In this document: piece after piece, positions 1-39,791 of the stretch
Layout of the letters: each line of letters opens with the position of its first letter
Position numbering within the stretch: position 1 is the first letter of the stretch
Source: Rhodospirillales bacterium
Lineage (GTDB): Bacteria > Pseudomonadota > Alphaproteobacteria > ATCC43930 > CGMCC-115725
Direction of reading: 5' to 3'
DNA length: 64,000 nt
Assembly (NCBI GenBank): GCA_028288725.1
Contig: JAQGIC010000101.1
Coordinates: forward strand, 1-64,000
The notes under the pieces: model-generated
Seen by the model: only the letters and a program-made list of their open reading frames with translations
Databases searched by the model: none
Told to the model about the DNA's origin: nothing
Position numbers and translations under genes: made by a program

Positions 1-864
1 ATGATGGCGCTGGGCGAGTTTCATCGTCAGGGACAGGGCGGCTCGGTCAATTTCGACGAGGCCACCGCCTGGTACCGGGAAGCGGCGCAACGCGGCCATG
101 TCGGCGCCCAAAAGACGTTGGGCCGCATGCATACCGCCGGGCAGGGCGTGCCCAGGGATGCGGTCGAGGCGGCGCGCTGGTTCGGCAAGGCTGCGGCGCA
201 AGGCGATGCCGAGGCGCAGATGGTCGTCGGGGCGATGCATGCCGAGGGTCGCGGCCAGGCGCAGGATCCGGCGGCGGCGCTCGCCTGGTTCCTGCGGGCG
301 GCGGAGCAGGGTGAGCCCGGCGCGCTCTATAACCTGGGGATCGCCTATCTCAGCGGGCTGGGCCTGCCGGTCGATGCCGAGCGGGCGAGCGAGCTCTTCC
401 GAGCGGCCGTCGAGGCCGGTAGCGCCGAGGCCGCCTTCCGTCTGGGCGTGCTGAGCGCCGGTGGGGACGCGGTCGAATCTGCTCGATGGTTTGGGCGGGC
501 CGCCGACTTGGGCAATGCCGACGCGATGTTCAATCTCGGTGTCTGCTATCGCCACGGGACCGGTGTCGAGCGGGATGGCGCACGGGCGCTCGACCTCTAT
601 CGTCAGGCGGCCGAGGCCGGCAGCGTCCCGGCGCAGCTTTGCCTGGGCGACGCCTATGACGAAGGCGCGGGCGTGGCCCAGGACCGTGCCCAGGCGATCG
701 GCTGGTACCGCCGGGCGGCGGCAGCCGGCGATGCGAACGCCCAGTTCAACCTTTGGCGGTTGGCAGCTGACTGCGAGGTGCCGGATGAGCCGCTGAAGTG
801 GCTGAACGCCGCCGCCCGGCAGGGGCACCCTGCCGCGGTCGAAGCGCTGGCGGCGAACTCGTGA
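1..864 (+). CDS. Sel1-like (SLR, TPR-type) repeat protein; possibly 5'-truncated by window edge
   Basis: Tandem ~36-aa units such as AVEAARWFGKAAAQGDAEAQMVVGAMHAEGRG and ARALDLYRQAAEAGSVPAQLCLGDAYDEGAG, typical of Sel1 repeats. ORF is open from nt 1; TGA at 862-864. Confidence 0.85.
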   Translation: MMALGEFHRQGQGGSVNFDEATAWYREAAQRGHVGAQKTLGRMHTAGQGVPRDAVEAARWFGKAAAQGDAEAQMVVGAMHAEGRGQAQDPAAALAWFLRAAEQGEPGALYNLGIAYLSGLGLPVDAERASELFRAAVEAGSAEAAFRLGVLSAGGDAVESARWFGRAADLGNADAMFNLGVCYRHGTGVERDGARALDLYRQAAEAGSVPAQLCLGDAYDEGAGVAQDRAQAIGWYRRAAAAGDANAQFNLWRLAADCEVPDEPLKWLNAAARQGHPAAVEALAANS

Positions 865-872
865 CAGATACG

Positions 873-2528
873 ATGGATTCACCAGCCAACGCCGCGATCT
901 ACTACATCCCCGAGGGCTATTCGACCGACGGCGATCGGCTGATGGGCATCAACGCCGCGTCGGAGGGGTTCGTGCGCGGTTTGGCCCGCCACGCCGACAT
1001 TCCGGCCGCCTATTGCGTCGTGGACGATGGGGCCGCGGCGGAGGCGTTTGCCGGCGTCATCCAGGCCGAGCGGCCGCACTTGCCGGTCAAGGCGCTGCCC
1101 AGCACCACGCCCGCGCTGCTGGCCGAACCCGGCTGCGTCTATCTGCCGGGTCCCGGCCTGTCGGCCTTCGCCTGGCGGCGGCGCCATCTGGATCCTCGGC
1201 AATACAGCCTGTGCGGCATCACTCATACGACGGCGTCCGCCGGGATCATGGACGCCCTGGCGGACTTTCCGATCGCACCGATCCAGCCTTGGGACGCTTT
1301 GATCTGTACCTCGCGTGCCGTGCGCCAGATGGTCGAGACGTTGATCGAGGGGCAGGCGGCCTACCTTGCCGAGCGGTTGGGGGCGACCATGCCGCCTTTG
1401 CCTCATCTGCCGGTGATCCCGCTGGGCGTCGATTGCGACCGCTTCCTCGACGACCAGGCAAGCCGGACCGCCTGGCGCGACCGCCTGGGCATTGCGCCGG
1501 ACGATGTGGCCATCCTGTTCGTCGGTCGGCTCAGCTTCCACGGTAAGGCCCATCCGTTGCCGCTGTTCATCAGCCTGGAAGCCGCGGCGGTGCGCACCGG
1601 ACGTCGGCTGCATCTGATCATGGCCGGCTGGTTCGGCAGCGAGTCGGTCGAAACGGCGTTCAAAGATGCCGCGCGGCAGCTGTGTCCTTCGGTCGACGTG
1701 TTGTTCCTCGACGGGCGAGAGACGGAGGTGCGCACGGCGATCTGGCGTGCGGCCGACATCTTCGCCTCACTTGCCGACAATATTCAGGAAAGCTTCGGTC
1801 TGACCCCGCTCGAGGCCATGGCCGCCGGCTTGCCGGTTGTGGCGAGCGATTGGGATGGCTATCGCGATACGGTGCGGCACGGCACGGATGGGTTCCTGAT
1901 TCAGAGCCTGATGGCGCCGGCGCCGCTCGGCGGCGATCTGGCCGATCGACATGCCAGCGGCTTGACCAACTACGACCGCTACATCGGCGAGGTCGCCCAG
2001 TTCACCGCGCTTGATCTCAACGCCTGTACCGCAGCCTTCACCGCCCTGATCGATGACGCCGACTTGCGTCGCCGCATGGGCGCGGCCGGGCGCGAACGGG
2101 CCCGGCGACGCTTCGACTGGCGGGTCGTGATCGGTCAGTATCAGGCGCTGTGGGCCGAGCTTGGGCACCATCGCGCCGCCGCCGCACCCGTCCCGCCGGT
2201 GCGCGACATAGCGACCATCCGGCCGGCCAGACCGGATCCGTTTCATGCCTTTGCCGGCTATCCGTCGCGGCGTCTCGACGCCATGTCCCTGATCTCGCTC
2301 GTGCCCGGCGGTCGCGAGCGATTGCTGTTGCTGCGCCCCTCGCCGATGATCGCTTTCGCCGAGCCGGTGCTGCCGGCCGAGGACGAAGCGGCGCATATCC
2401 TGATGCTGCTGGAGAAGGGACCCTCGACGGTGGAGAGCCTGATGGCCACATTCCCGCTGCCGCGCCGGGGCATTGCCATGCGCGGCATCGTCTGGCTGGC
2501 AAAGTTCGGCATCGTGGCGATCGTCTGA
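873..2528 (+). CDS. Glycosyltransferase, GT-B fold (GT4-like)
   Basis: C-terminal E-x7-E region ESFGLTPLEAMAAGLPVVASDWDGYRDTVRHGTDGFLI and FVGRLSFHGKAHP. ATG at 873. An in-frame GTG at 861 forms a GTGA overlap with the upstream stop and is an alternative start. Confidence 0.85.
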   Translation: MDSPANAAIYYIPEGYSTDGDRLMGINAASEGFVRGLARHADIPAAYCVVDDGAAAEAFAGVIQAERPHLPVKALPSTTPALLAEPGCVYLPGPGLSAFAWRRRHLDPRQYSLCGITHTTASAGIMDALADFPIAPIQPWDALICTSRAVRQMVETLIEGQAAYLAERLGATMPPLPHLPVIPLGVDCDRFLDDQASRTAWRDRLGIAPDDVAILFVGRLSFHGKAHPLPLFISLEAAAVRTGRRLHLIMAGWFGSESVETAFKDAARQLCPSVDVLFLDGRETEVRTAIWRAADIFASLADNIQESFGLTPLEAMAAGLPVVASDWDGYRDTVRHGTDGFLIQSLMAPAPLGGDLADRHASGLTNYDRYIGEVAQFTALDLNACTAAFTALIDDADLRRRMGAAGRERARRRFDWRVVIGQYQALWAELGHHRAAAAPVPPVRDIATIRPARPDPFHAFAGYPSRRLDAMSLISLVPGGRERLLLLRPSPMIAFAEPVLPAEDEAAHILMLLEKGPSTVESLMATFPLPRRGIAMRGIVWLAKFGIVAIV

Positions 2529-2529
2529 G

Positions 2530-3783
2530 TTAACCCGTCCGGCGATCCGGATGGCGCAACCGGCCCGCGGCGACATCGTCGATCAGGGACAGATAGGCCG
2601 GGAGGGCGACCGCCTTCAGATCATACTGATCGAGGATCGTCTGGCGCGCGTTCAGCCGCAATTGCTGCATCCGGTCGGGATGGCTCAGCACCTCGTCGAT
2701 GCGATCGACCAGGCCCGGACCGTCGAAGAAATCGACCAGCAGACCGTTGTGGCCGTCCTGCAGCACTTCCATCACCGGGGTGGTCGCCGACCCGATGACG
2801 AGACATCCGAGCGCCATCGCCTCCATGAACGACCAGGACAGGACGAACGGGTAGGTCAGATAGACGTGCACTGCCGAGAGCTGCAGCACGTTGATGAACA
2901 GCCCGTGGGAGACCTGACCCAGGAAATGGACCCGGTCGAAATCGATCCGGTCCCCCATCTCGGCCAGCAGCATCTCGCGGTAGGTCGTGCCGGTCGGCGC
3001 CGCGCGGCCATAGCTGACGCCGTCGGCCCCGATGATCAGGACCTGGGCCTTCGGGCGTCGCTTTAGGAGTGCCGGCAGCGCGCGCATGAAGATATGGAAG
3101 CCGCGATAGGGCTCCAGATTGCGGGAGACGAACGTGATCACCTCGTCGCCGGCCGTCAGCTTGGCCCCCGTACGCTGTAATTGGATCCAGGCGTCCGGAT
3201 CGGGCTTGGCGATATCGGTATCGACGCCTTCATGGATGACGCTGATCGCCGGGCGATGATGGGCCGGATACTGCGCTTGCTGCCAGCCGGTCGGCGTCTG
3301 GCCCCAGTCGATTGCTTCGAGCGCGAGCTGGTTGATCGCGTTCTTGGCGCGCAGCCGCGGCCCGTCGATCCAATGGGCCGGATATTCCGGGTCGAAGCCG
3401 ACGTCGGAACCGACCAGATGATAATAAAACTCGCAATAGCCGAGCACCGGGAGGTCCGGCCAGACATCCTTCAGGAAGAGCGTTTCGCCCCAACCGATGT
3501 GGCCGACGATGATATCGGGGCGAAAGCCCTGCGCATCGAGGCCGCGACAGAGCTCGGCGACGCTCAGGCCGTTGCGCGTGGCTTGATCGAATTCGGTCAG
3601 GAACGGATGGACGCCGACGGCAGGCGTTTGATCCGCTTCATAGACCAGCTTGGTGACGCCGCGCATCTCGTTCGTGTTGGCCTGGGTGATGAAGATCACC
3701 CGATTTTGCGGCCGGTCCGCCAAGTGGCGGACGACGTGCTGAAACTGTCCCGGAAAATTCTGATGAATGAACAGGTAGTTCAA
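2530..3783 (-). CDS. Glycosyltransferase, GT-B fold (GT4-like)
   Basis: 417-aa ORF. C-terminal donor-binding half SWSFMEAMALGCLVIGSATTPVMEVLQDGHNGLLVDF; N-terminus MNYLFIHQNFPGQF. Its start overlaps the stop of the upstream methyltransferase by 4 nt. Confidence 0.8.
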   Translation of the reverse strand: MNYLFIHQNFPGQFQHVVRHLADRPQNRVIFITQANTNEMRGVTKLVYEADQTPAVGVHPFLTEFDQATRNGLSVAELCRGLDAQGFRPDIIVGHIGWGETLFLKDVWPDLPVLGYCEFYYHLVGSDVGFDPEYPAHWIDGPRLRAKNAINQLALEAIDWGQTPTGWQQAQYPAHHRPAISVIHEGVDTDIAKPDPDAWIQLQRTGAKLTAGDEVITFVSRNLEPYRGFHIFMRALPALLKRRPKAQVLIIGADGVSYGRAAPTGTTYREMLLAEMGDRIDFDRVHFLGQVSHGLFINVLQLSAVHVYLTYPFVLSWSFMEAMALGCLVIGSATTPVMEVLQDGHNGLLVDFFDGPGLVDRIDEVLSHPDRMQQLRLNARQTILDQYDLKAVALPAYLSLIDDVAAGRLRHPDRRTG

Positions 3784-4379
3784 AACGCGAGCTCGGCCAG
3801 AATCCGGCGATAGACCTCCTGGTTCTGATCCTGCTTGAAGCCGAGGGCCGACAGTTCCAGGTATTCTTTCCGTTTGAGCATGGCGGTTGCGAAGCCCGCC
3901 GTCCGCAGCGCGGTCCCCAGGCTGGTGGCGGTGAAGCCGCTATGGTGGGCCATGAACAGATTGCCGCCGGCGATCGATGCCTCGTGGCCGAAGATCATGT
4001 CATGCGGCGTGATGGCGCCTGCCTGGGATTCGTAAGCGGCCTCGTGCAACTGATCGGCGGCAATCAACTCGGCCACGGCCTGAATGTCGGGGGTCTTCAG
4101 ATAGACAAATCCCTCCGGCTTCAAAACCCGCAGAAATTCGGCCAGGGCCTTCGGTACTTCGAAGCGATAGAGATGTTCGATATTGTGCGATGACCAGAGC
4201 GCATCGATGGAATTGTCGGGCACGCCCGACAGATCCGTTATCGACGCGATCAGATCCGGCCGTACGGCGGGGTCGAGATCGACCCGGACCTCGCGCCAAC
4301 CCTGCGACCGAAACAGCTCGGGCAGGCGCAGGTTGCTTCCCCGCGGGCCGCAGCCGACATTCAACAGTATTTTTTCCAT
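3780..4379 (-). CDS. Class I SAM-dependent methyltransferase
   Basis: Motif I LNVGCGPRG, post-I VDLDP, LRVLKPEGFVYLKTPD. ATG at 4379 (MEKILLNVGCG) chosen because the longer ORF would overlap the upstream gene end at 4393. Confidence 0.8.
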   Translation of the reverse strand: MEKILLNVGCGPRGSNLRLPELFRSQGWREVRVDLDPAVRPDLIASITDLSGVPDNSIDALWSSHNIEHLYRFEVPKALAEFLRVLKPEGFVYLKTPDIQAVAELIAADQLHEAAYESQAGAITPHDMIFGHEASIAGGNLFMAHHSGFTATSLGTALRTAGFATAMLKRKEYLELSALGFKQDQNQEVYRRILAELAF

Positions 4380-4392
4380 GGATGCGGGGCGG

Positions 4393-7300
4393 CTAAGGCT
4401 GACCGATGGACATGGAATTGCTGCCGAGCAGTCCACCGAAGCCGGCGGCGGGCGATTGTGCTCGTTCGGTAATAGTCAGTTGGAAGCGCTCGAGCGGATC
4501 CCTGAACGGTGCCGCGCCGCACACGGCGCCATTGCTGACCGGCCCGATGATCCCCGCGTTGAAGAATGTGCCCTTGTAGTCGCAATCGAACAGATTGGCG
4601 GCCGGCCCCCGCAGGCGGACGACGAAGCCGGTGATCGGCATGCCTTGGCCTTTGGTCCCGCAAGGGATGCCGCCGCTGACCCAAGGCGTCTCCTGGCCGT
4701 TGCCGATGACGGCCTTGTACTCGATGTGCTCCGGCCGGATGTCTTCGACCGGAATGATGGTGAAGGCTTCGATCCAGAGGCGCTGTCCAACCGAGCCGGC
4801 CCAATCGCTACCGCTGAAGGTGACGTCGCCGCGCTGCTGGATATGGGCGATGATCTTGGTCGATAACACCCGCCGCCCGACAGGTCCCTTGATCGCGGTC
4901 GCCGTGTTCGTCGCGTCGGTATCGAGCCGACGGCATTCGATCGGCAGCGGAGTCAGCTCATCGTTGGCACCGCGGAAGGTTGTCACGAGCATGCGGCATT
5001 CGGCGCCCAGTATGCGCAGGACCGTTTTTTCGCCTGTGCTGCCGAGCCAGTTCGGGTTGATCGGGTCGGAGCCCAGAAAATCCGCGCGACACTCCGCCGA
5101 TTGACCCGGGGCCTTGACGATCTGCACCGCCGGCAGCCGGATGCCGCCTTCGAGACGGGACGGGGCGGTGGCGCCAACGGAAAACAGATACAGGCCGGGC
5201 GAAAGTGTCAGGATGAGACTAGTCGATCGTACGGTCGCGGCGCCGGTTTGCATCTGATTGTCCATAGAGGATCCGCCTTCGACTTTCGGTGCAAAATTGT
5301 GCGCGCGACCGCCAGGGGGCGGCGATGCGTCGCGTGATGGGGTGACGGCCGCTTGTACTGTTCGGATTGTTGACTGACCCAAAGCTTTTAGCGATCCGGC
5401 AGGGCGGCGTAAATCGATTCGATCGAGCAGGAAATCGTTGATCGTCCGCTCGTCGCGGGTGACCGGGATCAGCCATCCGCCGGATTGGGTTCGGATGCGC
5501 TCGCCGACCGCACCCAGGTCGAACGCCAGGACAGGCAGGCCCGCGTGCCAGATTTCAGTCAAGCTGTAGGACCAGGTTTCCGGCGTGGCCGACGGCAGGA
5601 ATGCCAGATGGCAGTTCTGAGCGCGGATCAAATCGATAAGTTCGGCTGGCTCGTACCGACCGGTGACGAAGATCCGGCCGGTCTTGAACAGAATGGCATC
5701 ATCCTGGCTATAGCCGATGACGACGAATTCCAGCGGCAGGTCGCGCAGCGCCGCGTCCAGCCCGCAGGCAAGCAGCATCTCGTAGCCCTTCTGCTGCCCG
5801 ATGGCGCCCACGACCGCAACGCGCAGCCTTTCGCCCGGCGCGGGCGCGCGGGTCTGGAAAACCGGATCCGGCAAGGGCTTTTCCCAAGGGCGCGTCTCGT
5901 ACCGGGCATTCGGAATGATTTGCTGAAAGCGCTCCCGGACATCGGCACAGGGCGTGATGACGCGCGCGGCCCCGGCGAAGAGTGCCGTGCTTCGATTTCT
6001 GAGGTCGCCGACCGAGATTTCCTCGTTCAGGCTGCTGCCATTGAGTTCGATACAGCGCTCGCAGGTCGCCGTTTCGGGCATGCCGCAATAGCGGCCTTGC
6101 CCGTCCATCAGCGTGATCCGGGGACAGATCCAGCTGTAGTCGTGCACGATGATTTCATAGGGGACGGCCAGGCGTTTTGAAATCTCGAGTACGACCGCGG
6201 GCAAGTTCAGCGTGTGATGGATCTCGATGTCGCGAACCCGGAGATCGGCCAGGACCGCGACGAACTCGTCAAACTCTTCGGTCAGGTCGAAGATTAGATT
6301 GCTGAATGAATCGTCCGACGGATCGACCAGGACGCAACGCCCGGGATGGCTTTGATCGTTCATATGCGGCTTCAGCACCAGCGCGGGGCGTCCCACCCTC
6401 GCCAGCGCTTCGGCGACATCCTCCACATGGCGCGCGACGCCGCCGCTCAGGTCGAGCGTAATGATCAGGGTTGTATCCGGGGCAGGAACGGCGGTCTGGC
6501 GTCGAGCGAGGTCCAAGCGGCGGCGCGCCGGTAGCAGCGGATCGGCCGCAATGAAGTCGCGGATCCGCCTATCGTAACCGGGATGCAATCGGTTCAGGAT
6601 GCGGCTGTTGCGTTCGACCAGCAGGCGCTTGGCGCTGCCGAACGAACGGCCGCCGAAATGGGTGACGAAGACATCGGTCGCTGCGACATGATGCCAGCCC
6701 AGCAGTCTCGCCCGTTCACAAAAATCATTCTCTTCGCCGTAGCCGCGTCCGAAATGCTCGCTATCGAACGGGCCGACCTCGTTCAGGCAGTCGCGCCGGA
6801 TATACATGCAGAAGCCGACGGCGGTCGGGATATCGATGATCTGGCCGGCGTTGACCATGCGGGCGCGCGTATCCAAAGCGAGGCCCTCGGCAGCGGACGG
6901 AATGGAATTTTCCGCATAGGGTGCCGGATAGCTCAGGATCGAAGCTTCGTTGGAGAACGGCGTCACCGTCGCGATGTCGGGGCGGGCATAGGCCGCCTGG
7001 CGCAGCCGTGTAAGCCAGTCGCCATAAACCAGGGTATCTGAATTCAGCAGCATGACGTCGCGATCGCCATGGAGCGCCAGGCCCACGTTGACGGTCGCCG
7101 GGAAACCCAGGTTCTCGGCATTGCGGTGCAGCAGTATGTCGCCGGCAGCCGACAGTTCGCTGAGGTGTGCGACAAGTGCCTCGTCGGGACTGCAATCATC
7201 GATGACGATGATCTCGCAATCGATCGCCGCGGCACGACGCGCGGCGATTACGGAGGCGATGCACCGGACCGTTTCGTCCCGGCCGCCATAGACCGGAACC

Positions 7301-8367: not shown

Positions 8368-8507
8368 GACTCTTCCTCGAACGATACGCCCGCGAGACTA
8401 CATGATCTGGTGGGTTGCGACATGCCCGACGCCACCGGGCAATTTGGGACAATGGCCGAATATCTGTCCCGTGAGGGAGGAGAGGTCGCGGGTCCGCGCG
8501 ACCGCGC

Positions 8508-8551
8508 AAATAAAAATCCCGCAAGCCTGCTGCACGCAAGCTTGCGGGATT
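8508..8551 (-). terminator. Rho-independent terminator downstream of the repeat-protein gene
   Basis: On the minus strand a 12-bp perfect stem AATCCCGCAAGC / GCTTGCGGGATT (8540-8551 / 8515-8526) with a 13-nt loop, followed by TTTTTATTT. It starts 20 nt after the stop at 8571. A second GC hairpin (GGTCGCG ggtc CGCGACC) follows at ~8485-8502. Confidence 0.8.
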
Positions 8552-8570
8552 GTTCGTTTCGATCCGGTTA

Positions 8571-9770
8571 TCAGCCGATCTGGTGGGTGTTCAAGTTCGT
8601 GACGCCGACGAGCGTAATCGAGGTCTTGTCCGAGAGCGTGATCACCGTGTTGCCGTTGGTGACGGTTGCGTCGGCCAAAACCTGCGCCGCGGTCAGGCCA
8701 TATCCCTGAACGGTCAGCAGATTGCTGGTCGATGCGCCAAAATCCTCGATCGTGGTGCTGCCGCCGCCCGCAATCGTCGAGAAGGCGAAGATGTTGGCTC
8801 CGGCGCCGCCGAACACCGTGTCGGCGCCCTTGCCGGCGAAGATCACATCATTGCCAGCGCCGCCGAAAATCGTGGTGTTGCCCGTACCGGCGAAGAACGT
8901 GTTGTTCCCGGTACCACCGACCAGCGTCTGATTGCCGGCGCCAGCAACCAGCAGATCGTTGGCAGAGCCCGTGTTGAACAGCTGGTCGTTGCCTTGGCCG
9001 CCGATCAGGGTCGCATTGCCACTGCCACCGACGATCGTGTCGTTGGTGCCCGAACCCGCAGAAAAGAGACCGCCGCCGGAGCCGCCGAAGATGGTGGACG
9101 AGCCGGTGCCGCCCACGATCGTGCTGGCACCGGAGCCGGCGATGAACACGGAGTTGCCGGAGCCGCCGAATGCCTGTGAATTGCCGGAGCCGATACCGAT
9201 CGTGGCGTTGCCCGAGCCGGCGACGATGGTGTCGTTACCCGAGCTGTAGATCACGCTTTTCCCGGAGCCGCCGAACACGGTGTTATGGCCGGTGCCCGCG
9301 GTGACCGTATCGTTGCCGCTGGCGGCGACGATGATGTTGTTGCCATTGCCGGCGACGATCTTCGTATTGCCGTTGCCCGATGCGATCGTCCCGATCAAAT
9401 TATTGCCGTCGCCGGCGATAATCGTGCCAGACCCACCGCCGGCATTGATCGTGTCGTTGCCGGCATTGCCGACCAGGATCTGATTGTTCGTGGTCGACCC
9501 GATCACGGCCGCGCTGGTGCTGCCGGTCAATATCAGGCCAGCGGCACCGGTCGGAGCCACGAGCACGGTGCCGCTCGTCGGTGCGATCTGATAGACCGTA
9601 GCGGTTGATGCGGCGAGCGAAACCGGCGTCGAGAGGCTCGTAGCAACCAGCGAGTTGGTTACCGTCGAACTGATCGTCGCGAGGGCATTTGCAACGCTCT
9701 GCGCCACTGTCGTGGACAAAGAACTCGTATCGACGGATCCGCCGCCTGCAATGGTTGCCGTCGAAGCCAA
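8571..9770 (-). CDS. Degenerate RTX / beta-roll nonapeptide-repeat protein (putative secreted or surface protein)
   Basis: 399 aa. About two dozen 9-aa units (A/G)GxGxxxUx, e.g. GGQGNDQLF, GGAGNDVIF, AGSGNATIG, GGSGNSVFI. C-terminal non-repeat tail ...TTIEDFGAS...ITLVGVTNLNTHQIG. TTG start at 9770 lies 8 nt after GAGGGG; no internal Met. Confidence 0.8.
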   Translation of the reverse strand: MASTATIAGGGSVDTSSLSTTVAQSVANALATISSTVTNSLVATSLSTPVSLAASTATVYQIAPTSGTVLVAPTGAAGLILTGSTSAAVIGSTTNNQILVGNAGNDTINAGGGSGTIIAGDGNNLIGTIASGNGNTKIVAGNGNNIIVAASGNDTVTAGTGHNTVFGGSGKSVIYSSGNDTIVAGSGNATIGIGSGNSQAFGGSGNSVFIAGSGASTIVGGTGSSTIFGGSGGGLFSAGSGTNDTIVGGSGNATLIGGQGNDQLFNTGSANDLLVAGAGNQTLVGGTGNNTFFAGTGNTTIFGGAGNDVIFAGKGADTVFGGAGANIFAFSTIAGGGSTTIEDFGASTSNLLTVQGYGLTAAQVLADATVTNGNTVITLSDKTSITLVGVTNLNTHQIG

Positions 9771-10126
9771 GATGCCATCCCCTCAAAAAGGTCCTTCAGA
9801 CGACACGCAAACGGCCACTAGTGCCCGAAACTGCGAAAATCGACCGCAAGCTATGTTGCAATGCGTAGCGAAACTCTGGGCTTCGGTCAACTCGATTCAC
9901 GCCAAAATGTTACAACCGATGAGTTTATACGAAAATTTAGCATTTTACGGTATCTAGGTATGGATTGTCGTCCCGGCCTTCGTTAACGGTCGAATGAAAC
10001 CTGGGGTGTATCGGCTTTTTCCCCTAGCTTGGCCGCTTTGGTGCGATCGCCTCCCGCGGATCGTCTAATATAGCCATAGCGCGCTTCGGACAAAACAGCA
10101 CACGCTAAACGCGTGGTTGGCTCGGC

Positions 10127-10156
10127 GGAAATTTGAGGAAATTTGAGGAAATTTGG
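10127..10156. repeat. Three tandem 10-bp direct repeats (GGAAATTTGA x2, GGAAATTTGG)
   Basis: Read directly: cGGAAATTTGAGGAAATTTGAGGAAATTTGGagaaagc. Lies in the 544-bp intergenic region between the divergent repeat-protein gene and the GT2 gene. Confidence 0.9.
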
Positions 10157-10314
10157 AGAAAGCACTGGCGTTCAGTGGTGTGGAGGTGGTTTTGACGCTC
10201 CGGTTCGTTGCTCGGCCGTGCGCCCTCTCACCGGTTGAAATCCCTGACGGCGAATGTGATTGGGTGTTCCTACCAATGGTTTCTTCTCATCGGTTTCGGC
10301 ATTAGAGTGACGGG

Positions 10315-11259
10315 ATGGGCACTTCGACTGGCGACAAACTGATTGACGTTGTCATCGTCAATTGGAATTCGGGCATGCATTTGGCCGCCTGTCTGCGTGC
10401 TCTCGCTGCACCCAGCGAGCGCCATAGAATTCGTGGCGTGACGATCGTCGACAATGGTTCGACCGATGGCAGTCTCGATTTTCAGCTCCCTCCCGATCTG
10501 CCCGTCTTCATCGACCGGGCGGGGAGTAACCTTGGCTTTGCCCGCGGCTCAAATCGTGCGGCACGGCAGGGGACGGCTCCCTACATTCTACTTCTTAATC
10601 CCGACGCCAGTATCGAACCAGGCGCGCTCGATGCTGTGATTGCATCGTTCAATCGATCTGACGCGATCGGCATCGTGGGATTGCGCTTGTGCGATCAAGC
10701 TGGCAATACCTTGCGGACTTGCTCACGGTTTCCGACCGCACGAGCCTTCATTGTCCGTGCGCTGGGGTTGAACCTGTTGCCGGGATTGAAGCATCTAGGT
10801 CCCTTCATGCGCGATTGGGCCCATACCGAAAGCCGAATCGTGGACCAAGTAATGGGGGCGTGCTGTGCGGTGCCTCGCGCGCTCTTTGAAGACATCGGGG
10901 GTTTCGACGAGCGATTCTTCCTCTATTACGAAGATGTCGATTTGGCAAAGCGCGTTCAGAAAATCAATCGTATCAGTTGGTTTGAGACGGCAGGCGCCGC
11001 TCGCCATATTGGGGGTGGCAGCAGTGCCGCGATACCGGGGCGTCGCTTATTTTATATTCTTTCGAGTCGCTTTGCCTATGCGCGCAAACATTTCTCGCTG
11101 CTCGGCTATCTTGCGACGCTTTTCGTCACATTGTTGATTGAGCCCTGGAGCCGCCTGGCAGCCGAAGTCGTGCGGCGTGGTCCGGTCAAAATGTTCGTTG
11201 TCCTGTCGGGCTACGCGATACTGTTTCGGACGCTCGCCGGCGCCAAGTCACGGGGATGA
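10315..11259 (+). CDS. Glycosyltransferase family 2 (rhamnosyltransferase-like)
   Basis: DVVIVNWNS, VDNGSTDGS, NLGFARGSNRAAR, LLLNPDASI, DERFFLYYEDVDLAKR. Confidence 0.85.
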   Translation: MGTSTGDKLIDVVIVNWNSGMHLAACLRALAAPSERHRIRGVTIVDNGSTDGSLDFQLPPDLPVFIDRAGSNLGFARGSNRAARQGTAPYILLLNPDASIEPGALDAVIASFNRSDAIGIVGLRLCDQAGNTLRTCSRFPTARAFIVRALGLNLLPGLKHLGPFMRDWAHTESRIVDQVMGACCAVPRALFEDIGGFDERFFLYYEDVDLAKRVQKINRISWFETAGAARHIGGGSSAAIPGRRLFYILSSRFAYARKHFSLLGYLATLFVTLLIEPWSRLAAEVVRRGPVKMFVVLSGYAILFRTLAGAKSRG

Positions 11260-12389
11260 GTAAGGTTCGCCCGCTCAAAGTGTTAGCGCTTACGCGCTAC
11301 AGCCGCCTTGCGGCGAGTTCGCGCTATCGGCTGCTGCAGTTCCTGCCGCTGCTCGGTGAAGCCCGACTCGATGTAACGGTCAAGCCGCTGCTCGGCGACT
11401 GGTATGTGCAATGCCTGGTCACCGGGCGGCGCCCGCCAAGCGGGCGGGTCGCCGCAGCCTATATTGGCCGCGTCCTCGCCATGCTTAGTGCCGAATCGCC
11501 GGACTTGATCTGGATCGAGCGGGAATTATTGCCTTGGATGCCATGGTCGTTGGAGCGGGCGCTGCTGAGCGGAAAGACGCCGACCATCCTCGATTTGGAT
11601 GACAGCATCTTCCATCGATATGACCAGCATCCGTCACCCTTGGTTCGCAAGATGCTGGGCCGGCGGATTGATCGCGCCATGGCAGCGGCCACAGTCGTCA
11701 CTTGCGGCAATCCTACGATTGCGGAGCGCGCGCGGGCGAGCGGGGCCCGCCGCATCGTCGAATTGCCTACCGTTATTGATTGCAACCGCTACCCCGCGCA
11801 GCCAAGCGGGCGAACGCCCGATGGGAAATTCGTCGTCGGCTGGATCGGTAGCCCTCAAAATTCCCAGTATCTCGAGGCGCTGCGGGAGCCGCTTACCCAA
11901 TTGGCGGCCGAGGGACCTCTTCGAATATTGGTAGTCGGCGGCGCACCCGGTGTCCTTGCTGGTCTGCCGGTCGAGATCCGCCCTTGGGCGGAGGCGACCG
12001 AGATTGCGGCGCTGTGTGAAATGGACGTCGGGGTTATGCCTTTACCGGACCGGCCTTTCGAACGCGGCAAGTGCGGGCTGAAGCTGCTGCAATATATGGC
12101 TGCCTGGAAGCCGGCGATTGCGTCTCCGGTCGGGGTCAATACGCGGATCATCGATCACGGCGTTCGTGGTTTCCTCGCCGACACCCCCGAAGAATGGCTG
12201 GCGAGCCTGCGGCATGTCCGCGATGACGCCGCTCTCGGCCGCTCGATGGGCGCGGCAGGCCGGCAGCTGGTCGAGCAAGATTATTCGGTGGCGAGCGTTG
12301 GCCCGCGCCTCGTCGTGCTCATGACCGAACTGGCGATGGCTCAAGCGGATGCCGGCAATTTCGCGAGACGTGCCCACACGGCCGGGTGA
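11256..12389 (+). CDS. Glycosyltransferase, GT-B fold (GT4-like)
   Basis: ATGA overlap with the upstream GT2 stop. GWIGSPQNSQYL and MPLPDRPFERGKCGLKLLQYMAAWKPAIASPVGVNTRIIDHGVRGFLA. Confidence 0.75.
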   Translation: MSKVRPLKVLALTRYSRLAASSRYRLLQFLPLLGEARLDVTVKPLLGDWYVQCLVTGRRPPSGRVAAAYIGRVLAMLSAESPDLIWIERELLPWMPWSLERALLSGKTPTILDLDDSIFHRYDQHPSPLVRKMLGRRIDRAMAAATVVTCGNPTIAERARASGARRIVELPTVIDCNRYPAQPSGRTPDGKFVVGWIGSPQNSQYLEALREPLTQLAAEGPLRILVVGGAPGVLAGLPVEIRPWAEATEIAALCEMDVGVMPLPDRPFERGKCGLKLLQYMAAWKPAIASPVGVNTRIIDHGVRGFLADTPEEWLASLRHVRDDAALGRSMGAAGRQLVEQDYSVASVGPRLVVLMTELAMAQADAGNFARRAHTAG

Positions 12390-14422
12390 TCGGCCAGCAG
12401 ACTTTTGAGATCGGCTTTCGCCGTCTGAGTGACCCATGCGGGCGCATGGGAATTCAGCAGATCTGCGGCTGCCATCGCGGCACCGTCCAAGTCGCCCGCC
12501 TTCAATTGCGCTACGACTTCATGGTATTTTATGCGGCAGCGTTCCTCGGCTGCTTCATCGCTTCCATCTGCCAGGGTGCGGCGCCAAGCCTCAGCAAATG
12601 ATGCCGCAGCGGACACTGGCGTGCGTCGATGCAGCAAGTCGAGCATGCCACGGGCGTTCAACAGGCGCCAATCGTCGACGCCCTGAACGAGCGGCTCCAA
12701 TCGCGCTGCGATATCGAGATGCCCCAGATCGACCAGACTGACGAGGATAGGAAAGATCTTCGTCGGCGGTAGTGGCTCGGACGACGAAAGAATTGGTGCG
12801 ATCAAGGTGTCTATTTTCGTACGCCCTGCCCGAAGCACGGCCTGGTGGGTTGCCGGCAGGAAATTGTCATGTGCCCGGGCGGCTATCGTGCCGCCGGCCA
12901 CTCTCGCTTGATCGAACAACGCCAACGCAGTCTTGCCGTCGCCGCGCCGATGCAAGGCGATGAAACCGTTGGACAGCGCACGCAATGCGGGGTTATCGGC
13001 GACAACGGCAGCAAGCTCCAGATGGCCCAGATCGATCAGGCAGAGCACAGCCGCCTCAGTCCAAGCAGCCGAACCACTGCTTGCGGGCCTGCGCAGGCGA
13101 TCGGCCACGGCCTGCGGATCGACGTGACACAACGACAGTATTGCCTGTCGGGGAGCGTCCTGTTCGATGGCGCCAGTCTCGCCATCGTCGATGCCGATCG
13201 CGACGTAAGCTTGCCGGAAGGCGATTGCGACGCGGGCGGCCTCATCGAAGCAGCGGCTCGCGATCGCTGGGGCATTCTCGCCATTCTGGGCGATCATGCC
13301 CGCGCAATAGAGGACGCCAGCCAGGCACCAGGGCGCGCCGAACCGGCCGCTGATTGTGCCCTGCCGCACCTTGTCGAGGATCTGATTGGGAACGGGTGCC
13401 TCTATGGAAAACCCGAACGTCGCCTCGATATCGGCGGACAGAACTTGCAGAAGAACTCGGGCCTCGTCGTAGTCAGCACTGTTGGTCAGTTCTTTGAGCA
13501 ATCGATACCGCAGCCCTCGCTGTAACGAGAGTTGTAGGCCGTCGCGGGCTAGAACCTGCGTGAGATAGCGGCGATAGAGTCCACGGTCGAGAGGCGCCGC
13601 CGGGTCGAAGTCTAGCGGCCGGCGCGAGGCGTAAGCGACGAGCCGATGCCCGGCCGATCGGACCGAGACATATGGGAAACCGGCAGCCTGCAACAGGTGG
13701 CGCAAACCTTCGGCGGAATAGAGAATTAGATGGTGGCCGGGGCTGAGTGCCAGCATCAATTCCGGCATCGGCACGCCGGGACGGACCGAGTCGGCATCGG
13801 GGGTGGTTAACGCCAGCGTACCGTTCGGTGCCAGATGGGCGGCGCAGATCGCCAGGAACGCCTGAGGATCATCGATATGCTCGATGACCTCCGAGGCATA
13901 GACCAGGTCGAAGGGGCCGCCAAGATCGATCTCGGTCGTTGCATAGATTGTCTGGATGGCGAGGCCGAGCCCGTCGCGACCGGCCTGAGCCAGCGGCGAA
14001 GGATCGAGGCCTAGCCCTTGCCAACCGAACATCCGCTGGGCCGCGTCAACGGAAAAGCCATACCCGCAGCCGATCTCCAGATACCGCCGGACCCGATCTG
14101 CCGGAATACGCGCAATCGGCTCGATTAACGCATCAACGCCGGCGCCTTGCTCCACATAGAAATCGGTCGACCAGGGAAACCCTGTGCCGCCCTCATAGGC
14201 GAACGACTTCTGATCGTCCCAGAACAGGTTGGTGCAGGCGCGACATTCGACCAGCGTGATCGTCCCGCGGCCGGGAGCCAGACTCCGGGTGCTGAGAAGC
14301 GCCCGCTTCGCATCAGCGTCGCCACAGACGGGACACACGAGCACCTGGGCCGTTCCGGCTTCGCACCATTCGGCTACGCCGACTGTTGACGACAGCGATT
14401 GCCTCTTATCGTCCATGACCAT
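12341..14422 (-). CDS. Zn-ribbon + class I SAM methyltransferase with ~400-aa helical C-terminal extension
   Basis: CPVCG...ECRAC four-Cys ribbon. YLEIGCGYGFSV (motif I), DLVYASEVIEHIDDPQAFL, LAPNGTLALTTPD. Start taken at ATG 14422 (or 14416), just downstream of the upstream stop at 14431. The C-terminal half is Ala/Leu-rich helical sequence. Confidence 0.75.
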   Translation of the reverse strand: MVMDDKRQSLSSTVGVAEWCEAGTAQVLVCPVCGDADAKRALLSTRSLAPGRGTITLVECRACTNLFWDDQKSFAYEGGTGFPWSTDFYVEQGAGVDALIEPIARIPADRVRRYLEIGCGYGFSVDAAQRMFGWQGLGLDPSPLAQAGRDGLGLAIQTIYATTEIDLGGPFDLVYASEVIEHIDDPQAFLAICAAHLAPNGTLALTTPDADSVRPGVPMPELMLALSPGHHLILYSAEGLRHLLQAAGFPYVSVRSAGHRLVAYASRRPLDFDPAAPLDRGLYRRYLTQVLARDGLQLSLQRGLRYRLLKELTNSADYDEARVLLQVLSADIEATFGFSIEAPVPNQILDKVRQGTISGRFGAPWCLAGVLYCAGMIAQNGENAPAIASRCFDEAARVAIAFRQAYVAIGIDDGETGAIEQDAPRQAILSLCHVDPQAVADRLRRPASSGSAAWTEAAVLCLIDLGHLELAAVVADNPALRALSNGFIALHRRGDGKTALALFDQARVAGGTIAARAHDNFLPATHQAVLRAGRTKIDTLIAPILSSSEPLPPTKIFPILVSLVDLGHLDIAARLEPLVQGVDDWRLLNARGMLDLLHRRTPVSAAASFAEAWRRTLADGSDEAAEERCRIKYHEVVAQLKAGDLDGAAMAAADLLNSHAPAWVTQTAKADLKSLLADHPAVWARLAKLPASA

Positions 14423-14430
14423 TCCGCTCG

Positions 14431-15444
14431 TTAGAAAACCCGATTGCGCGCTGCCGTCTGCAGATAGTCCTCGATGAGTTCGACAGGGTAGTCGCTTGTG
14501 CTCTCGATGGTCGACCGCCAATTGACCAGCAATGGAATGCCTGCCGGGTTCTTTTCCAACAGCTCACGTTTGATGAACGGGAACCGAAGTTCAGTAATGA
14601 GATATTCCCAGAAGTAGTGTGTCGGGTTGAGCGGACGGCCCAGGTTCACGCCTTCCAGAAGCCGATCGAAATAAGTGTCAAGCAGGGGGTGGCTGATGGT
14701 TTCGGCCATTGCACGATCAACCACGGCTGCGGACAGGCGCCGATATGGATAGAGCGCCTTCAGCTTCAGGCCGGCCTTCAGCATCGCCTGGCTGAGGCCG
14801 ACCTCATACTTGTGAATCACAACCCGCTTGCCGCCGACATAACGCATCTGGCGCCAGAAATCGGTGAAGGCTTTCGAGCGTAGCGCCTTGGCGCCGAACA
14901 GCACGAAGAAGCTCTGCAGGTGATATTTGTTGTCGTAGCTATCGGTCATGCCCCAGACGTCCGTCCGGTCGAACTGGCACTGATCGATGATTTCCTTCAG
15001 GTCCTGAAGCGGGCCGAAGATGCTGTCGTTGAGGATCAGCACCTGTTCGGCCTCGCCGATCTCCGGAGTCAACAGAATGCCGTCGCGCCAAGCGCCGAAA
15101 TCATAGCCGAGATTCCTCCGCTGGAGTACCCGCCCGCACCAGGGCAAAACCGTTTGCAGACTTTCGGGATCGAGCTTGCGCGAATTGGAGACAACAACTG
15201 TGGTGAACCCGGCTTGGTCAAGCGCGCGCAGGAGATAGAGGAAATAGTCGGCGAAGCGCTTCTGCGTCGAAAAATGGACGAGGACGGCAATCTTTGGTGC
15301 GTTGGCGAGAGGCTTGCCCCCCTCCCAGCGAGCCGTGACGTAGTTCGAGCGCAAATGGCGCCAGCTTGCGTACCATGACAGCCGGTCGGCGACAGCGGCA
15401 TGGCTGATCTCCAGCGCACGCCAGACACGCCTCATAACTCTCAT
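14431..15444 (-). CDS. Rhamnan synthesis protein F (RgpF) family glycosyltransferase
   Basis: VLILNDSIFGPL, DVWGMTDSYDNKYHLQSFFVLF, FPFIKRELL, characteristic of the RgpF family. Confidence 0.75.
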   Translation of the reverse strand: MRVMRRVWRALEISHAAVADRLSWYASWRHLRSNYVTARWEGGKPLANAPKIAVLVHFSTQKRFADYFLYLLRALDQAGFTTVVVSNSRKLDPESLQTVLPWCGRVLQRRNLGYDFGAWRDGILLTPEIGEAEQVLILNDSIFGPLQDLKEIIDQCQFDRTDVWGMTDSYDNKYHLQSFFVLFGAKALRSKAFTDFWRQMRYVGGKRVVIHKYEVGLSQAMLKAGLKLKALYPYRRLSAAVVDRAMAETISHPLLDTYFDRLLEGVNLGRPLNPTHYFWEYLITELRFPFIKRELLEKNPAGIPLLVNWRSTIESTSDYPVELIEDYLQTAARNRVF

Positions 15445-39758: not shown

Positions 39759-39791
39759 CAGGGTTCTCCTTCGTTAGGCCGGGCGTGTGGT

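What the first reader, a model, noticed from the sequence alone, without database searches (positions are those of the whole stretch)
1..15444. Glycosylation island built around a single secreted-type repeat protein, not a self-contained polysaccharide locus
Ten consecutive genes make up the island. Nine are sugar-modifying or protein-recognition modules: a Sel1-repeat protein, GT4, GT4, a SAM methyltransferase, the 1324-aa TPR-GT2-GT-B fusion, GT2, GT4, a Zn-ribbon methyltransferase and an RgpF-family protein. The tenth, in the middle, is a degenerate-RTX repeat protein with its own SD, its own strong terminator and a 544-bp upstream region. Several things expected of an O-antigen or capsule locus are missing from the window. 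I see no polyprenyl-phosphate initiating transferase, no Wzx/Wzy or Wzm/Wzt, no chain-length regulator and no nucleotide-sugar synthesis genes. TPR and Sel1 modules are typical protein-substrate recognition devices in protein glycosyltransferases (OGT/GT41 enzymes, and the flagellin glycosyltransferase FlmG of Caulobacter). Hypothesis A: this is a dedicated system that glycosylates or methyl-glycosylates the Ser/Thr/Asn-rich repeat protein. Hypothesis B: it makes the specific glycan that anchors it, as the S-layer protein RsaA is anchored to an O-polysaccharide in Caulobacter. Glycosylation of an RTX/beta-roll protein would be unusual.
Basis: partly seen in the sequence, partly recalled or inferred. 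Interest (0 to 1): 0.75.

Follow-up and report, generated by a model that had tools for sequence, protein, structure and literature searches.

The report
Sugar-adding genes tied to secreted protein
The island is the visible half of a widespread, undescribed gene cassette that links a small secreted repeat protein, its type I secretion pump and a giant multi-domain glycosyltransferase. This suggests that bacteria attach sugars to this protein before exporting it.

Summary
The window starts inside the Sel1 gene, close to the end of a 65-kb MAG contig, so "missing export genes" cannot be read from the left side.

Comparative genomics gives the main result. The 1324-aa enzyme (3.5 TPR, two beta-sandwiches, GT2, GT-B, ChW-like end) defines a class of 48 loci:
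- 43 also carry the PF12000-type GT4.
- 31 carry a cytoplasmic Sel1 protein.
- 28-29 carry a HlyB/HlyD-type type I secretion pair.
- 1 carries wzm.

Shorter relatives that have only the GT2+GT-B core lie beside wzm/wzt instead.

The repeat protein belongs to a family with a conserved N-terminal module, degenerate RTX repeats and a conserved C-terminal domain. A member sits directly upstream of the big enzyme in 15 of these loci. In the reverse search this held for all 4 full-length orthologues whose contig reaches downstream. Azospirillum brasilense Sp7 has the whole set on its pRhico-type plasmid.

Best reading (about 0.5): a cassette that glycosylates type I secretion cargo. Main rival (about 0.3): it builds a surface glycan that the secreted protein binds or depends on. 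I found no prior description.

The parts
1..864 (+). Sel1-repeat protein, C-terminal 287 aa only (the gene is cut by the window edge). Full-length relatives are 550-900 aa, have no signal peptide and follow the HlyD gene.
   Evidence: Pfam Sel1 E 1.7e-49. It is 32-45% identical to cassette Sel1 genes. Full-length relatives have no hydrophobic N-terminus.
798..2528 (+). GT4 glycosyltransferase (GT4a), an accessory gene specific to this locus.
   Evidence: Pfam Glycos_transf_1 E 1.3e-20. No homologue was found in the 80 related loci.
2530..3783 (-). Core GT4 with an N-terminal Glyco_trans_4_3 (PF12000) domain (GT4b).
   Evidence: Pfam E 1.1e-60. It is present in 43 of 48 class-A loci at 41-66% identity and in 0 of 32 others.
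3780..4379 (-). Small class I SAM methyltransferase (MT11), found in many cargo-bearing loci.
   Evidence: Pfam Methyltransf_11. The gene call is 199 aa. It is 44-56% identical in L003-L012, L047 and L165.
4393..8367 (-). Core 1324-aa enzyme (BigGT). Its parts are 3.5 TPR (residues 13-134), two beta-sandwich domains (141-320), GT2 (about 350-580), a GT-B domain with a conserved Cys4 insert (about 630-1000) and two beta domains ending in a ChW-like module (about 1045-1310). No transmembrane segment.
   Evidence: Pfam; alignment A1 with invariant residues; AF2 models; Foldseek; hydropathy.
8515..8551 (-). Intrinsic terminator between the cargo gene and BigGT.
   Evidence: 16-bp stem with 9 GC pairs plus a T-run; -27.6 kcal/mol. 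Similar hairpins follow the cargo gene in L012, L051 and L059.
8571..9770 (-). Predicted type I secretion cargo, 399 aa. It has a conserved N-terminal module (MASTATIAGG plus a helix), about 26 degenerate RTX nonapeptides and a conserved C-terminal domain of about 80 aa. Composition: 25% Ser+Thr, 20% Gly, 9% Asn, no Cys, Arg or Trp.
   Evidence: Pfam HemolysinCabind E 1.9e-32; family alignments; composition; 38% identity end to end (BLASTP E 4e-54) to the A. brasilense Sp7 'calcium-binding protein'.
9771..10314 (.). Divergent 544-bp control region between the cargo gene and the GT2-GT4c operon. It holds a perfect 10-bp tandem repeat, GGAAATTTGA x2.9, at 10127-10155.
   Evidence: Sequence; TRF; one weak sigma-70-like site at 9971-9942.
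10315..11259 (+). GT2 glycosyltransferase, accessory.
   Evidence: Pfam.
11256..12389 (+). GT4 glycosyltransferase (GT4c). It is conserved, divergently upstream of the cargo gene, in Azospirillum-type loci.
   Evidence: Pfam. It is 46-50% identical in L059, L087, L088 and L089.
12341..14416 (-). 691-aa protein with a zinc ribbon, a class I methyltransferase domain and a long C-terminal region of about 400 aa with no domain hit (MT23).
   Evidence: Pfam Methyltransf_23 E 4e-23; CxxC...CxxC motif. Homologues are in L009 and L051.
14431..15444 (-). RgpF-family (rhamnan-synthesis type) glycosyltransferase. It marks the right end of the island.
   Evidence: Pfam RgpF E 1.3e-28. It is 39-44% identical in L009 and L051. 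The next genes are a hypothetical protein and CtaG/Cox11.

Best explanation
The island is one half of a conserved cassette that glycosylates the cargo of a type I secretion system.

Proposed mechanism:
1. The 399-aa repeat protein is made in quantity from its own promoter and terminator.
2. It stays unfolded in the low-calcium cytoplasm.
3. It is recognised through its conserved N-terminal module, or its repeats, by the TPR of the giant enzyme and/or the cytoplasmic Sel1 protein.
4. It receives a glycan from soluble enzymes. The core enzymes are BigGT (GT2+GT-B) and the PF12000-type GT4. The lineage-specific extras here are GT4a, GT2, GT4c, RgpF and two methyltransferases, which suggests a methylated glycan that may contain 6-deoxyhexose.
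5. It then leaves through a HlyB/HlyD/TolC-type system via its C-terminal domain.

Shown: the genes, the domains, the conserved linkage, the absence of any other membrane export or transfer component in the core, and cargo-like features of the protein.

Inferred: that the acceptor is the protein itself, the order of events, the nature of the sugars, and that the secretion genes lie just left of the window.
For: 1. Linkage starting from the enzyme. Of 48 loci carrying the ChW-type enzyme, 43 have GT4b, 31 have Sel1, 29 have the HlyD-type adaptor, 28 have the ABC protein and 1 has wzm. Of 32 loci with only the GT2+GT-B core, the counts are 0, 1, 2, 2 and 10. The secretion pair therefore replaces wzm/wzt as the export partner of this kind of enzyme.

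2. The ABC protein matches TIGR01846 (HlyB type) over its full length, although at 556 bits it is below that model's 725.55-bit cutoff. Its extra N-terminal domain lacks the cysteine expected of an active C39 peptidase, by my reading of two sequences. The adaptor passes the TIGR01843 cutoff. These features describe a protein exporter.

3. A cargo-family gene lies directly upstream of the enzyme in 15 loci. They come from Rhodospirillales, Azospirillum, Sphingobium, Steroidobacteraceae, Hydrogenophaga and Bryobacteraceae.

4. Reverse search from the cargo. All 4 full-length orthologues whose contig extends downstream have BigGT next to them (L084, L085, L087, L088). L089 has GT4c next to it. 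Only one generic RTX hit (L094) had a match to my glycosyltransferase panel within 4 kb.

5. More distant family members also sit beside sugar enzymes. L165 repeats the window's layout and continues into Sel1 and the adaptor gene. L169 has the order ABC, adaptor, Sel1, cargo, ChW protein, GT4b. L168 is a two-gene module among housekeeping genes: cargo plus a 1127-aa methyltransferase-GT-GT fusion that gave no BigGT tblastn hit.

6. No enzyme of the island has a transmembrane segment, and the Sel1 proteins lack signal peptides. The only recurrent multi-pass membrane protein in class-A loci is the secretion ABC.

7. The N-terminal TPR resembles peptide-binding TPRs: SycD, PcrH, IpgC, HOP and OGT.

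8. Accessory modules vary between loci: methyl, sulfate plus PAPS synthesis, amino-sugar genes. Such variation is expected of an exposed glycan.
Against: - There are no chemical data; the acceptor is inferred only from gene context.
- The catalytic core is 38-46% identical to enzymes that sit beside wzm/wzt. Those presumably extend lipid-linked O-polysaccharide.
- About 30 Acetobacteraceae-type loci keep the secretion pair, Sel1, the enzyme and GT4b but have no cargo gene within 10 kb. These loci share flanking genes, so they are largely one inherited arrangement, and a cargo gene elsewhere could not be searched for.
- In A. brasilense the cassette is embedded among wzm/wzt, rml and gmd genes.
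- Six or more glycosyltransferase domains imply a sizeable glycan. It would have to pass a type I channel together with an unfolded chain.
- Two cargo-family members stand alone, with no sugar enzyme nearby.
- The secretion genes are not visible for this genome.
Confidence: 0.5

Rival explanations
1. Surface-glycan partner model. The enzymes build a lipid-linked polysaccharide of the O-antigen or exopolysaccharide type. The secreted repeat protein is not glycosylated. Instead it binds that glycan on the cell surface, as the RsaA S-layer protein is anchored to smooth LPS. Alternatively it is needed for the glycan's production or release, as ExpE1 secreted by ExpD1/ExpD2 is needed for galactoglucan in Sinorhizobium meliloti.
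For: - The GT2+GT-B core is homologous to enzymes in wzm/wzt loci.
- In Azospirillum the neighbourhood contains two wzm/wzt pairs plus rfbABCD and gmd.
- RgpF and methyltransferases are typical of rhamnan-type O-polysaccharides with methyl caps (established knowledge).
- The ChW-like end could be a glycan-binding module.
- Precedents exist for an RTX protein, a type I system and glycosyltransferases in one locus (PMC1403797; PMC3034196).
- Acetobacteraceae-type loci lack an adjacent cargo gene.
Against: - In 47 of 48 class-A loci no wzm lies within 10 kb. No initiating transferase, flippase or ligase recurs there.
- This model gives a cytoplasmic Sel1 protein and a peptide-type TPR no obvious role.
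- The two-gene module L168 (cargo plus a methyltransferase-GT-GT fusion) has no polysaccharide context at all.
- Only about 35 N-terminal residues of the cargo are conserved. RsaA, in contrast, has a large N-terminal part distinct from its RTX repeats (its role in LPS anchoring is from my own knowledge).
- No Sinorhizobium plasmids were among the leading tblastn matches of the enzyme, so the locus is probably not homologous to exp/wge.
Confidence: 0.3
2. Ordinary O-antigen or LPS island fragment. The RTX gene is an unrelated neighbour, and the missing export and precursor genes simply lie elsewhere or off the contig.
For: - The window is cut at the left edge, and the contig is only 65 kb.
- All enzyme families present are common in O-antigen loci.
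- The island has lower G+C, like many horizontally acquired O-antigen regions.
Against: - The adjacency of cargo family and enzyme is reciprocal and conserved across classes.
- The enzyme class associates with type I secretion and Sel1 rather than with wzm/wzt.
- L165 shows that what follows GT4b in a close relative is Sel1 and the HlyD-type adaptor, not wzm/wzt.
Confidence: 0.07
3. The cassette glycosylates a different protein (for example flagellin, or the Sel1 protein itself). Alternatively the type I-like ABC and adaptor export the glycan directly. In either case the repeat protein is only a co-secreted accessory.
For: - The polar flagellin of A. brasilense is a glycoprotein with a repetitive O-glycan (own knowledge, not tested here).
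- Many class-A loci keep the secretion pair, Sel1 and the enzymes without any adjacent cargo gene.
Against: - The annotated or Pfam-scanned genes around the cassette include no flagellar genes; most flanking ORFs in the loci were clustered but not annotated.
- The ABC keeps the extra N-terminal domain characteristic of exporters of RTX proteins, and the adaptor is of the HlyD type.
- The cargo family tracks glycosyltransferases even where no secretion genes are nearby.
Confidence: 0.06

Closest known systems
Sinorhizobium meliloti galactoglucan (EPS II) exp/wge cluster: the ExpE1 RTX-like protein, the ExpD1/ExpD2 type I secretion system and glycosyltransferases
   Same: One locus combines a small calcium-binding repeat protein, its own ABC and adaptor secretion pair, and several glycosyltransferases. 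The secreted protein and its exporter are required for the sugar product (PMC1403797).
   Different: No sequence relationship was detected: Sinorhizobium plasmids are absent from the leading matches of the enzyme. The exp cluster has no Sel1 protein, no TPR-GT2-GT-B-ChW enzyme and no PF12000-type GT4. In S. meliloti the product is a free exopolysaccharide, and the role of ExpE1 is unknown.
Caulobacter crescentus RsaA S-layer system: an RTX S-layer protein, RsaD/RsaE, and anchoring to smooth LPS
   Same: An abundant RTX protein is exported by a dedicated type I system, and its surface retention depends on a specific O-polysaccharide (PMC3034196).
   Different: RsaA is a 98-kDa protein with a large N-terminal part distinct from its RTX repeats. 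The protein here has 399 aa, and only about 35 N-terminal residues are conserved. There is no evidence of an S-layer, and no Sel1 or TPR enzyme occurs in the Caulobacter system.
Cytoplasmic glycosylation of secreted structural proteins: flagellin islands including the TPR-bearing FlmG of Caulobacter, OGT/GT41, HMW1C, and serine-rich-repeat adhesin glycosyltransferases
   Same: A structural gene lies next to soluble glycosyltransferases, and a TPR-type module is available for recognising the protein substrate. Modification occurs before export of an unfolded chain through a narrow channel.
   Different: The catalytic domains here are GT2 and GT4-like, not GT41 or Maf. Export would be by a type I system, for which I know of no dedicated glycosylation machinery. 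Comparison with FlmG rests on memory and was not tested.
Glycosylated RTX proteins of cyanobacteria: oscillin and SwmA
   Same: These are RTX-repeat surface proteins reported to be glycosylated (PMC3034196).
   Different: The review cited here names no enzymes for them. They are larger proteins, and no homology was tested here.
ABC-transporter-dependent O-polysaccharide synthesis: multi-domain polymerising glycosyltransferases beside wzm/wzt, often with methyl capping
   Same: The GT2+GT-B core is 38-46% identical to enzymes encoded beside wzm/wzt. Methyltransferases and RgpF fit methyl-capped rhamnan-type chains.
   Different: The enzyme class found in this window carries extra TPR, beta-sandwich and ChW-like domains. 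It associates with type I secretion, Sel1 and GT4b rather than wzm/wzt.

Membership tests
RTX / type I secretion substrate | Tandem glycine-rich nonapeptide repeats of the GGxGxDxUx type | tested here: met
   HemolysinCabind E 1.9e-32 in 7 stretches. About 26 units lie in 9-residue register, but only 2 are canonical and most lack the calcium-binding Asp.
RTX / type I secretion substrate | No N-terminal signal peptide, and an uncleaved C-terminal secretion region | tested here: inconclusive
   There is no hydrophobic N-terminus. The C-terminal domain of about 80 aa is conserved across the family and resembles the C-termini of many small alphaproteobacterial RTX proteins. Secretion itself cannot be tested here.
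RTX / type I secretion substrate | A cognate ABC and membrane-fusion pair encoded nearby | tested here: not met
   The window has none, but it is cut inside the Sel1 gene. In relatives the pair lies next to Sel1.
HlyB/HlyD-type type I secretion system (in related loci) | An ABC protein with an N-terminal C39-like domain, a transmembrane domain and an ATPase; and a HlyD-family adaptor | tested here: met
   For L012: TIGR01843 scores 315 bits, above its 208.65 cutoff. TIGR01846 matches over its full length at 556 bits, below its 725.55 cutoff. By my reading of the L012 and L026 sequences, the N-terminal domain lacks the cysteine expected of an active C39 peptidase; this was not aligned to a C39 reference.
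ABC-transporter-dependent O-antigen locus | wzm/wzt adjacent to the glycosyltransferases | tested here: not met
   None in the window. wzm is present in 1 of 48 class-A loci and 10 of 32 core-only loci. It is present near the cassette in A. brasilense.
ABC-transporter-dependent O-antigen locus | An initiating polyprenyl-phosphate transferase and nucleotide-sugar synthesis genes | tested here: not met
   No multi-pass membrane protein other than the secretion ABC recurs in class-A loci. The window has no clear such genes; the only candidate is a weak epimerase/dehydratase-like hit at 18444-19556. Such genes can lie elsewhere in a genome.
GT41 (OGT / HMW1C) protein glycosyltransferases | A GT41 catalytic domain joined to TPR or TPR-like repeats | tested here: not met
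   A TPR is present, but the catalytic domains match GT2 and GT1/4 models only. No PDB sequence match was found. The enzyme may work like GT41 but is not a member.
S. meliloti exp/wge EPS II cluster | Orthology of the glycosyltransferases | tested here: not met
   tblastn of the 1324-aa enzyme against 72,556 plasmids lists no Sinorhizobium among the leading genera. pSymB records were not checked individually.
RsaA-type RTX S-layer protein | A large N-terminal part distinct from the RTX region, and lattice formation | not testable with these tools
   The protein has 399 aa, and only about 35 N-terminal residues are conserved. Lattice formation needs microscopy.

The most novel reading that the evidence does not exclude
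A dedicated cytoplasmic glycosylation pathway for type I secretion cargo, guided by a leader-like module. A conserved N-terminal module of about 35 residues on small beta-roll proteins would dock onto the TPR of the giant enzyme and/or a cytoplasmic Sel1 chaperone. The unfolded repeats would then be decorated with a lineage-variable glycan (methylated, sulfated or carrying amino sugars), and the glycoprotein handed to a HlyB/HlyD exporter. On this view the protein replaces undecaprenyl phosphate as the glycan carrier, and the type I system replaces Wzm/Wzt as the exporter. The system is widespread in Proteobacteria and includes the plant-associated model Azospirillum brasilense.
Probability: 0.4. 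Interest if true: 0.8.

Novelty: new variant of a known kind. Interest (0 to 1): 0.65.

Why it matters
Type I secretion is usually seen as a simple pump for unmodified, or at most acylated, unfolded proteins. A conserved cassette coupling it to a Sel1 protein and multi-domain glycosyltransferases would add a modification step to that pathway.

It would also identify enzymes for a class of glycosylated RTX surface proteins, for which I know of none. It would show how a polysaccharide-polymerase scaffold was re-partnered from Wzm/Wzt to a protein exporter.

The cassette occurs in cultivable Azospirillum brasilense Sp7, on the plasmid that appears to be its pRhico surface-determinant plasmid, so the question can be tested directly. 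The answer bears on root colonisation.

If the rival holds instead, the locus would be a second example, unrelated in sequence, of the unexplained ExpE1-type dependence of a polysaccharide on a secreted RTX protein.

Tried and rejected
- Looking for the DNA left of the window. Both exact-sequence look-ups returned only an 18.8-kb Logan contig that ends inside the island. The MAG contig is 65,230 bp, so the region cannot be seen.
- PDB sequence search with the big enzyme found nothing. GT4b gave only generic GT4 matches.
- Foldseek with the C-terminal model found no significant match, so the ChW-like end remains unassigned.
- NCBIfam gave no specific family for the cargo, the enzyme or RgpF.
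- A 12-member cargo alignment was too diverse to seed a metagenome scan. A 3-member alignment worked.
- A profile search for cargo genes elsewhere in Acetobacteraceae genomes was swamped by generic RTX proteins, and no Acetobacteraceae names appeared among the top 120. The question stays open.
- Seven literature searches found no description of this cassette. Papers opened on a Zymomonas type I cargo, a methanotroph S-layer and Dickeya were irrelevant. Subscription-only work on Azospirillum pRhico and p120 could not be searched.
- I considered that the cargo might be an enzyme, such as a glycanase or epimerase. I rejected this because it has no domain besides the repeats.
- I considered a double-glycine bacteriocin leader. 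I rejected it because GG lies at residues 9-10 and, by my reading, the ABC N-terminal domain has no catalytic cysteine.

Full report
**Observation**

ORF listing and Pfam scans confirm the ten genes and their domains.
- 1-864 (+): Sel1. It is open at base 1, so the N-terminus is missing.
- 798-2528 (+): GT4.
- 2530-3783 (-): GT4 with an N-terminal Glyco_trans_4_3 domain, E 1e-60.
- 3780-4379 (-): small SAM methyltransferase.
- 4393-8367 (-): 1324-aa protein with TPR, GT2, GT1/4 and a faint ChW hit.
- 8571-9770 (-): RTX protein, HemolysinCabind E 1.9e-32.
- 10315-11259 (+) and 11256-12389 (+): GT2 and GT4.
- 12341-14416 (-): 691-aa methyltransferase with a zinc ribbon.
- 14431-15444 (-): RgpF-family protein.

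The RTX gene starts at TTG, 8 nt after GAGGGG. It ends at a 16-bp-stem terminator (-27.6 kcal/mol). About 26 nonapeptide units lie in register between residues 96 and 330, and only 2 are canonical GGxGxD, so "degenerate RTX" is accurate. The protein is 25% Ser+Thr, 20% Gly and 9% Asn, with no Cys, Arg or Trp.

The island has lower G+C (0.59-0.65) than its flanks. It ends on the right at a hypothetical gene and CtaG/Cox11. The other 48 kb are housekeeping genes. They include no wzm/wzt, no HlyD-type secretion pair and no clear nucleotide-sugar genes; the only candidate is a weak epimerase-like hit at 18444-19556.

**An important caveat**

The 1324-aa protein is 100% identical to a hypothetical protein (JWO51_3883) of a "Rhodospirillales bacterium" MAG, whose contig is 65,230 bp. 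The window starts inside the Sel1 gene. The island is therefore cut by the end of the data, and nothing can be concluded about genes to its left. Exact-sequence look-ups returned only a shorter contig.

**The enzyme defines two classes of locus**

I scanned one genome per species with a profile of the big enzyme. This gave 80 loci with 10-kb flanks. I called ORFs, clustered them and annotated the recurrent clusters.

| Feature | 48 loci with the ChW-like C-terminal domain | 32 loci matching only residues about 345-980 |
|---|---|---|
| PF12000-type GT4 (GT4b) | 43 | 0 |
| Sel1 protein | 31 | 1 |
| HlyD-family adaptor | 29 | 2 |
| ABC exporter of about 760 aa | 28 | 2 |
| wzm | 1 | 10 |

The usual order in the first class is ABC, adaptor, Sel1, (small protein), big enzyme, (methyltransferase), GT4b.

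The ABC protein matches the HlyB-type model over its full length, though below that model's cutoff. It has the extra N-terminal domain, which by my reading of two sequences lacks the cysteine of an active C39 peptidase. The adaptor passes the curated cutoff for type I HlyD. In class-A loci the only recurrent multi-pass membrane protein is this ABC. No initiating transferase, flippase, polymerase or ligase recurs.

Many of the Acetobacteraceae-type loci share flanking genes such as MetH and a GNAT. They are therefore not independent observations. However, the same gene set recurs in rearranged form in Sphingobium, Steroidobacteraceae, Hydrogenophaga, Bryobacteraceae and Azospirillum.

**The repeat protein is part of the cassette**

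An RTX protein lies directly upstream of the enzyme, on the same strand, in 13 loci. These proteins share three features:
- a conserved N-terminus, M-x-[ST]-x-T-[IV]-x-G-G followed by a short helix;
- a variable number of repeats;
- a conserved C-terminal domain of about 80 residues.

Two further loci carry 172-180-aa proteins at the same position. They have the same N- and C-termini but almost no repeats. The termini, not the repeats, therefore define the family.

I also searched in the reverse direction, starting from the cargo.
- All 4 full-length orthologues whose contig extends downstream have the big enzyme next to them.
- A fifth, L089, has GT4c next to it.
- Only one generic RTX hit (L094) had a match to my glycosyltransferase panel within 4 kb.

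A profile search shows many proteins of 330-520 aa, at least about 50 among the top 120 hits, with this N-module. I looked up the contexts of six of them.
- L165: cargo, big enzyme, methyltransferase, GT4b (66% identical), then Sel1 and the adaptor on the opposite strand. This is the window's layout, continued past the point where the window ends.
- L169: ABC, adaptor, Sel1, cargo, a separate ChW protein, GT4b, then further glycosyltransferases.
- L168: a two-gene module among housekeeping genes, with cargo plus a 1127-aa methyltransferase-GT-GT fusion that gave no BigGT tblastn hit.
- L167: cargo followed by a large glycosyltransferase.
- L166 and L170: cargo genes standing alone.

**A cultivable example**

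Azospirillum brasilense Sp7 plasmid p5 appears to be the pRhico-type plasmid (from my own knowledge; the record does not say so). It encodes, in order, a "calcium-binding protein", the big enzyme, a methyltransferase, a GT4 and another methyltransferase. The calcium-binding protein is 38% identical to the window's cargo, E 4e-54. About 13 kb further on lie SEL1, HlyD and a "peptidase domain-containing ABC transporter". The cassette there is embedded among two wzm/wzt pairs, rfbABCD and gmd.

**Anatomy of the enzyme**

AlphaFold2 with a 27-sequence alignment gives a confident model of residues 1-345 (pLDDT 86.5). It shows seven helices forming 3.5 TPR (residues 13-134) and two beta-sandwich domains. 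The best structural matches of the TPR are peptide-binding three-repeat modules: the type III chaperones SycD, PcrH and IpgC, HOP TPR1 and OGT.

The C-terminal 340 residues form two beta domains with no significant PDB match. In Acetobacteraceae this part is a separate gene of about 320 aa.

None of the island's enzymes has a transmembrane segment, and full-length Sel1 proteins have no signal peptide.

**Interpretation**

The enzyme core clearly descends from, or is related to, the polymerising glycosyltransferases of Wzm/Wzt O-polysaccharide loci. The class found here has gained TPR, beta-sandwich and ChW-like domains. Its genomic partner has changed from Wzm/Wzt to a protein exporter, a cytoplasmic repeat protein and a small cargo protein.

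The simplest reading is that the cargo protein has taken the place of the lipid carrier. The unfolded protein would be glycosylated in the cytoplasm and then exported. The two-gene module L168 and the varied accessory chemistry fit this reading. The accessory genes include methyltransferases here, sulfotransferases with PAPS synthesis in L007, L011 and L051, and amino-sugar genes in L004 and L006. I put this reading at about 0.5.

The main rival, at about 0.3, is that the enzymes make a lipid-linked surface glycan that the secreted protein binds or needs. The precedents are RsaA with smooth LPS and ExpE1 with ExpD1/ExpD2 and galactoglucan. Three observations favour it:
- the homology of the catalytic core;
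- the Azospirillum neighbourhood;
- the Acetobacteraceae-type loci that have no adjacent cargo gene.

An incidental O-antigen fragment is largely excluded by the reciprocal co-occurrence.

**Comparison with what is known**

Glycosylated RTX proteins exist, namely oscillin and SwmA. The modification itself would therefore not be unprecedented. What appears undescribed is the cassette.

Seven full-text searches found nothing on it, with the limit that subscription journals are not covered. The locus is probably not homologous to the S. meliloti exp cluster. The enzyme is not a GT41 member.

**Verdict**

This is a new variant of known kinds of system, and it is directly testable in Azospirillum. 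Interest 0.65.

Noticed in passing
window 10127-10155: A perfect 10-bp tandem repeat, GGAAATTTGA x2.9, lies in the divergent region between the cargo gene and the GT2-GT4c operon. It may be a regulator binding site.
   Followed up: partly
L016-L034, L037-L042, L058, L064, L070, L071 (Acetobacteraceae-type loci): The ChW-like C-terminal part of the big enzyme is a separate gene of about 290-400 aa. No cargo gene is adjacent in these loci. Synteny with MetH and a GNAT gene shows that the arrangement was inherited vertically.
   Followed up: partly
L007, L011, L051; L004, L006: Accessory genes around the conserved core differ between lineages. L007, L011 and L051 have sulfotransferases and/or PAPS-synthesis genes (CysNC- and CysD-type): sulfotransferases in L007 and L011, PAPS-synthesis genes in L007 and L051. 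L004 and L006 have a DegT-type aminotransferase and a double-GT2 protein, and L004 also a GDP-mannose-dehydratase-like gene. The window has methyltransferases and RgpF.
   Followed up: partly
search hits H18-H25 (E. coli plasmids of 29-102 kb): Small E. coli plasmids carry a glycosyltransferase that is about 36% identical to residues 353-958 of the big enzyme. This is the core-only class, here in a mobile context.
   Followed up: no
proteins P0156, P0160, P0173, P0182, P0190, P0193, P0205: One branch of the cargo family carries an extra His/Gly/Asp-rich tail after the C-terminal domain, ending ...FGHS or ...FGHG.
   Followed up: no
window 37766-40172: A MetE-like protein with a TusA-like segment lies next to DsrE-like and TusA-like genes, suggesting a sulfur-relay cluster. 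It is unrelated to the island.
   Followed up: no
window 56024-57895 (+) and 58779-60656 (-): A 623-aa ORF with high GC3 has no Pfam match. Nearby is a lone MsbA-type ABC exporter of 625 aa with no adjacent adaptor gene.
   Followed up: no
L001 11062-11349 (window about 8422-8709, + strand): A 95-aa gene was called on the strand opposite the 3' end of the cargo gene and its terminator in the public assembly. It is probably a spurious call.
   Followed up: no
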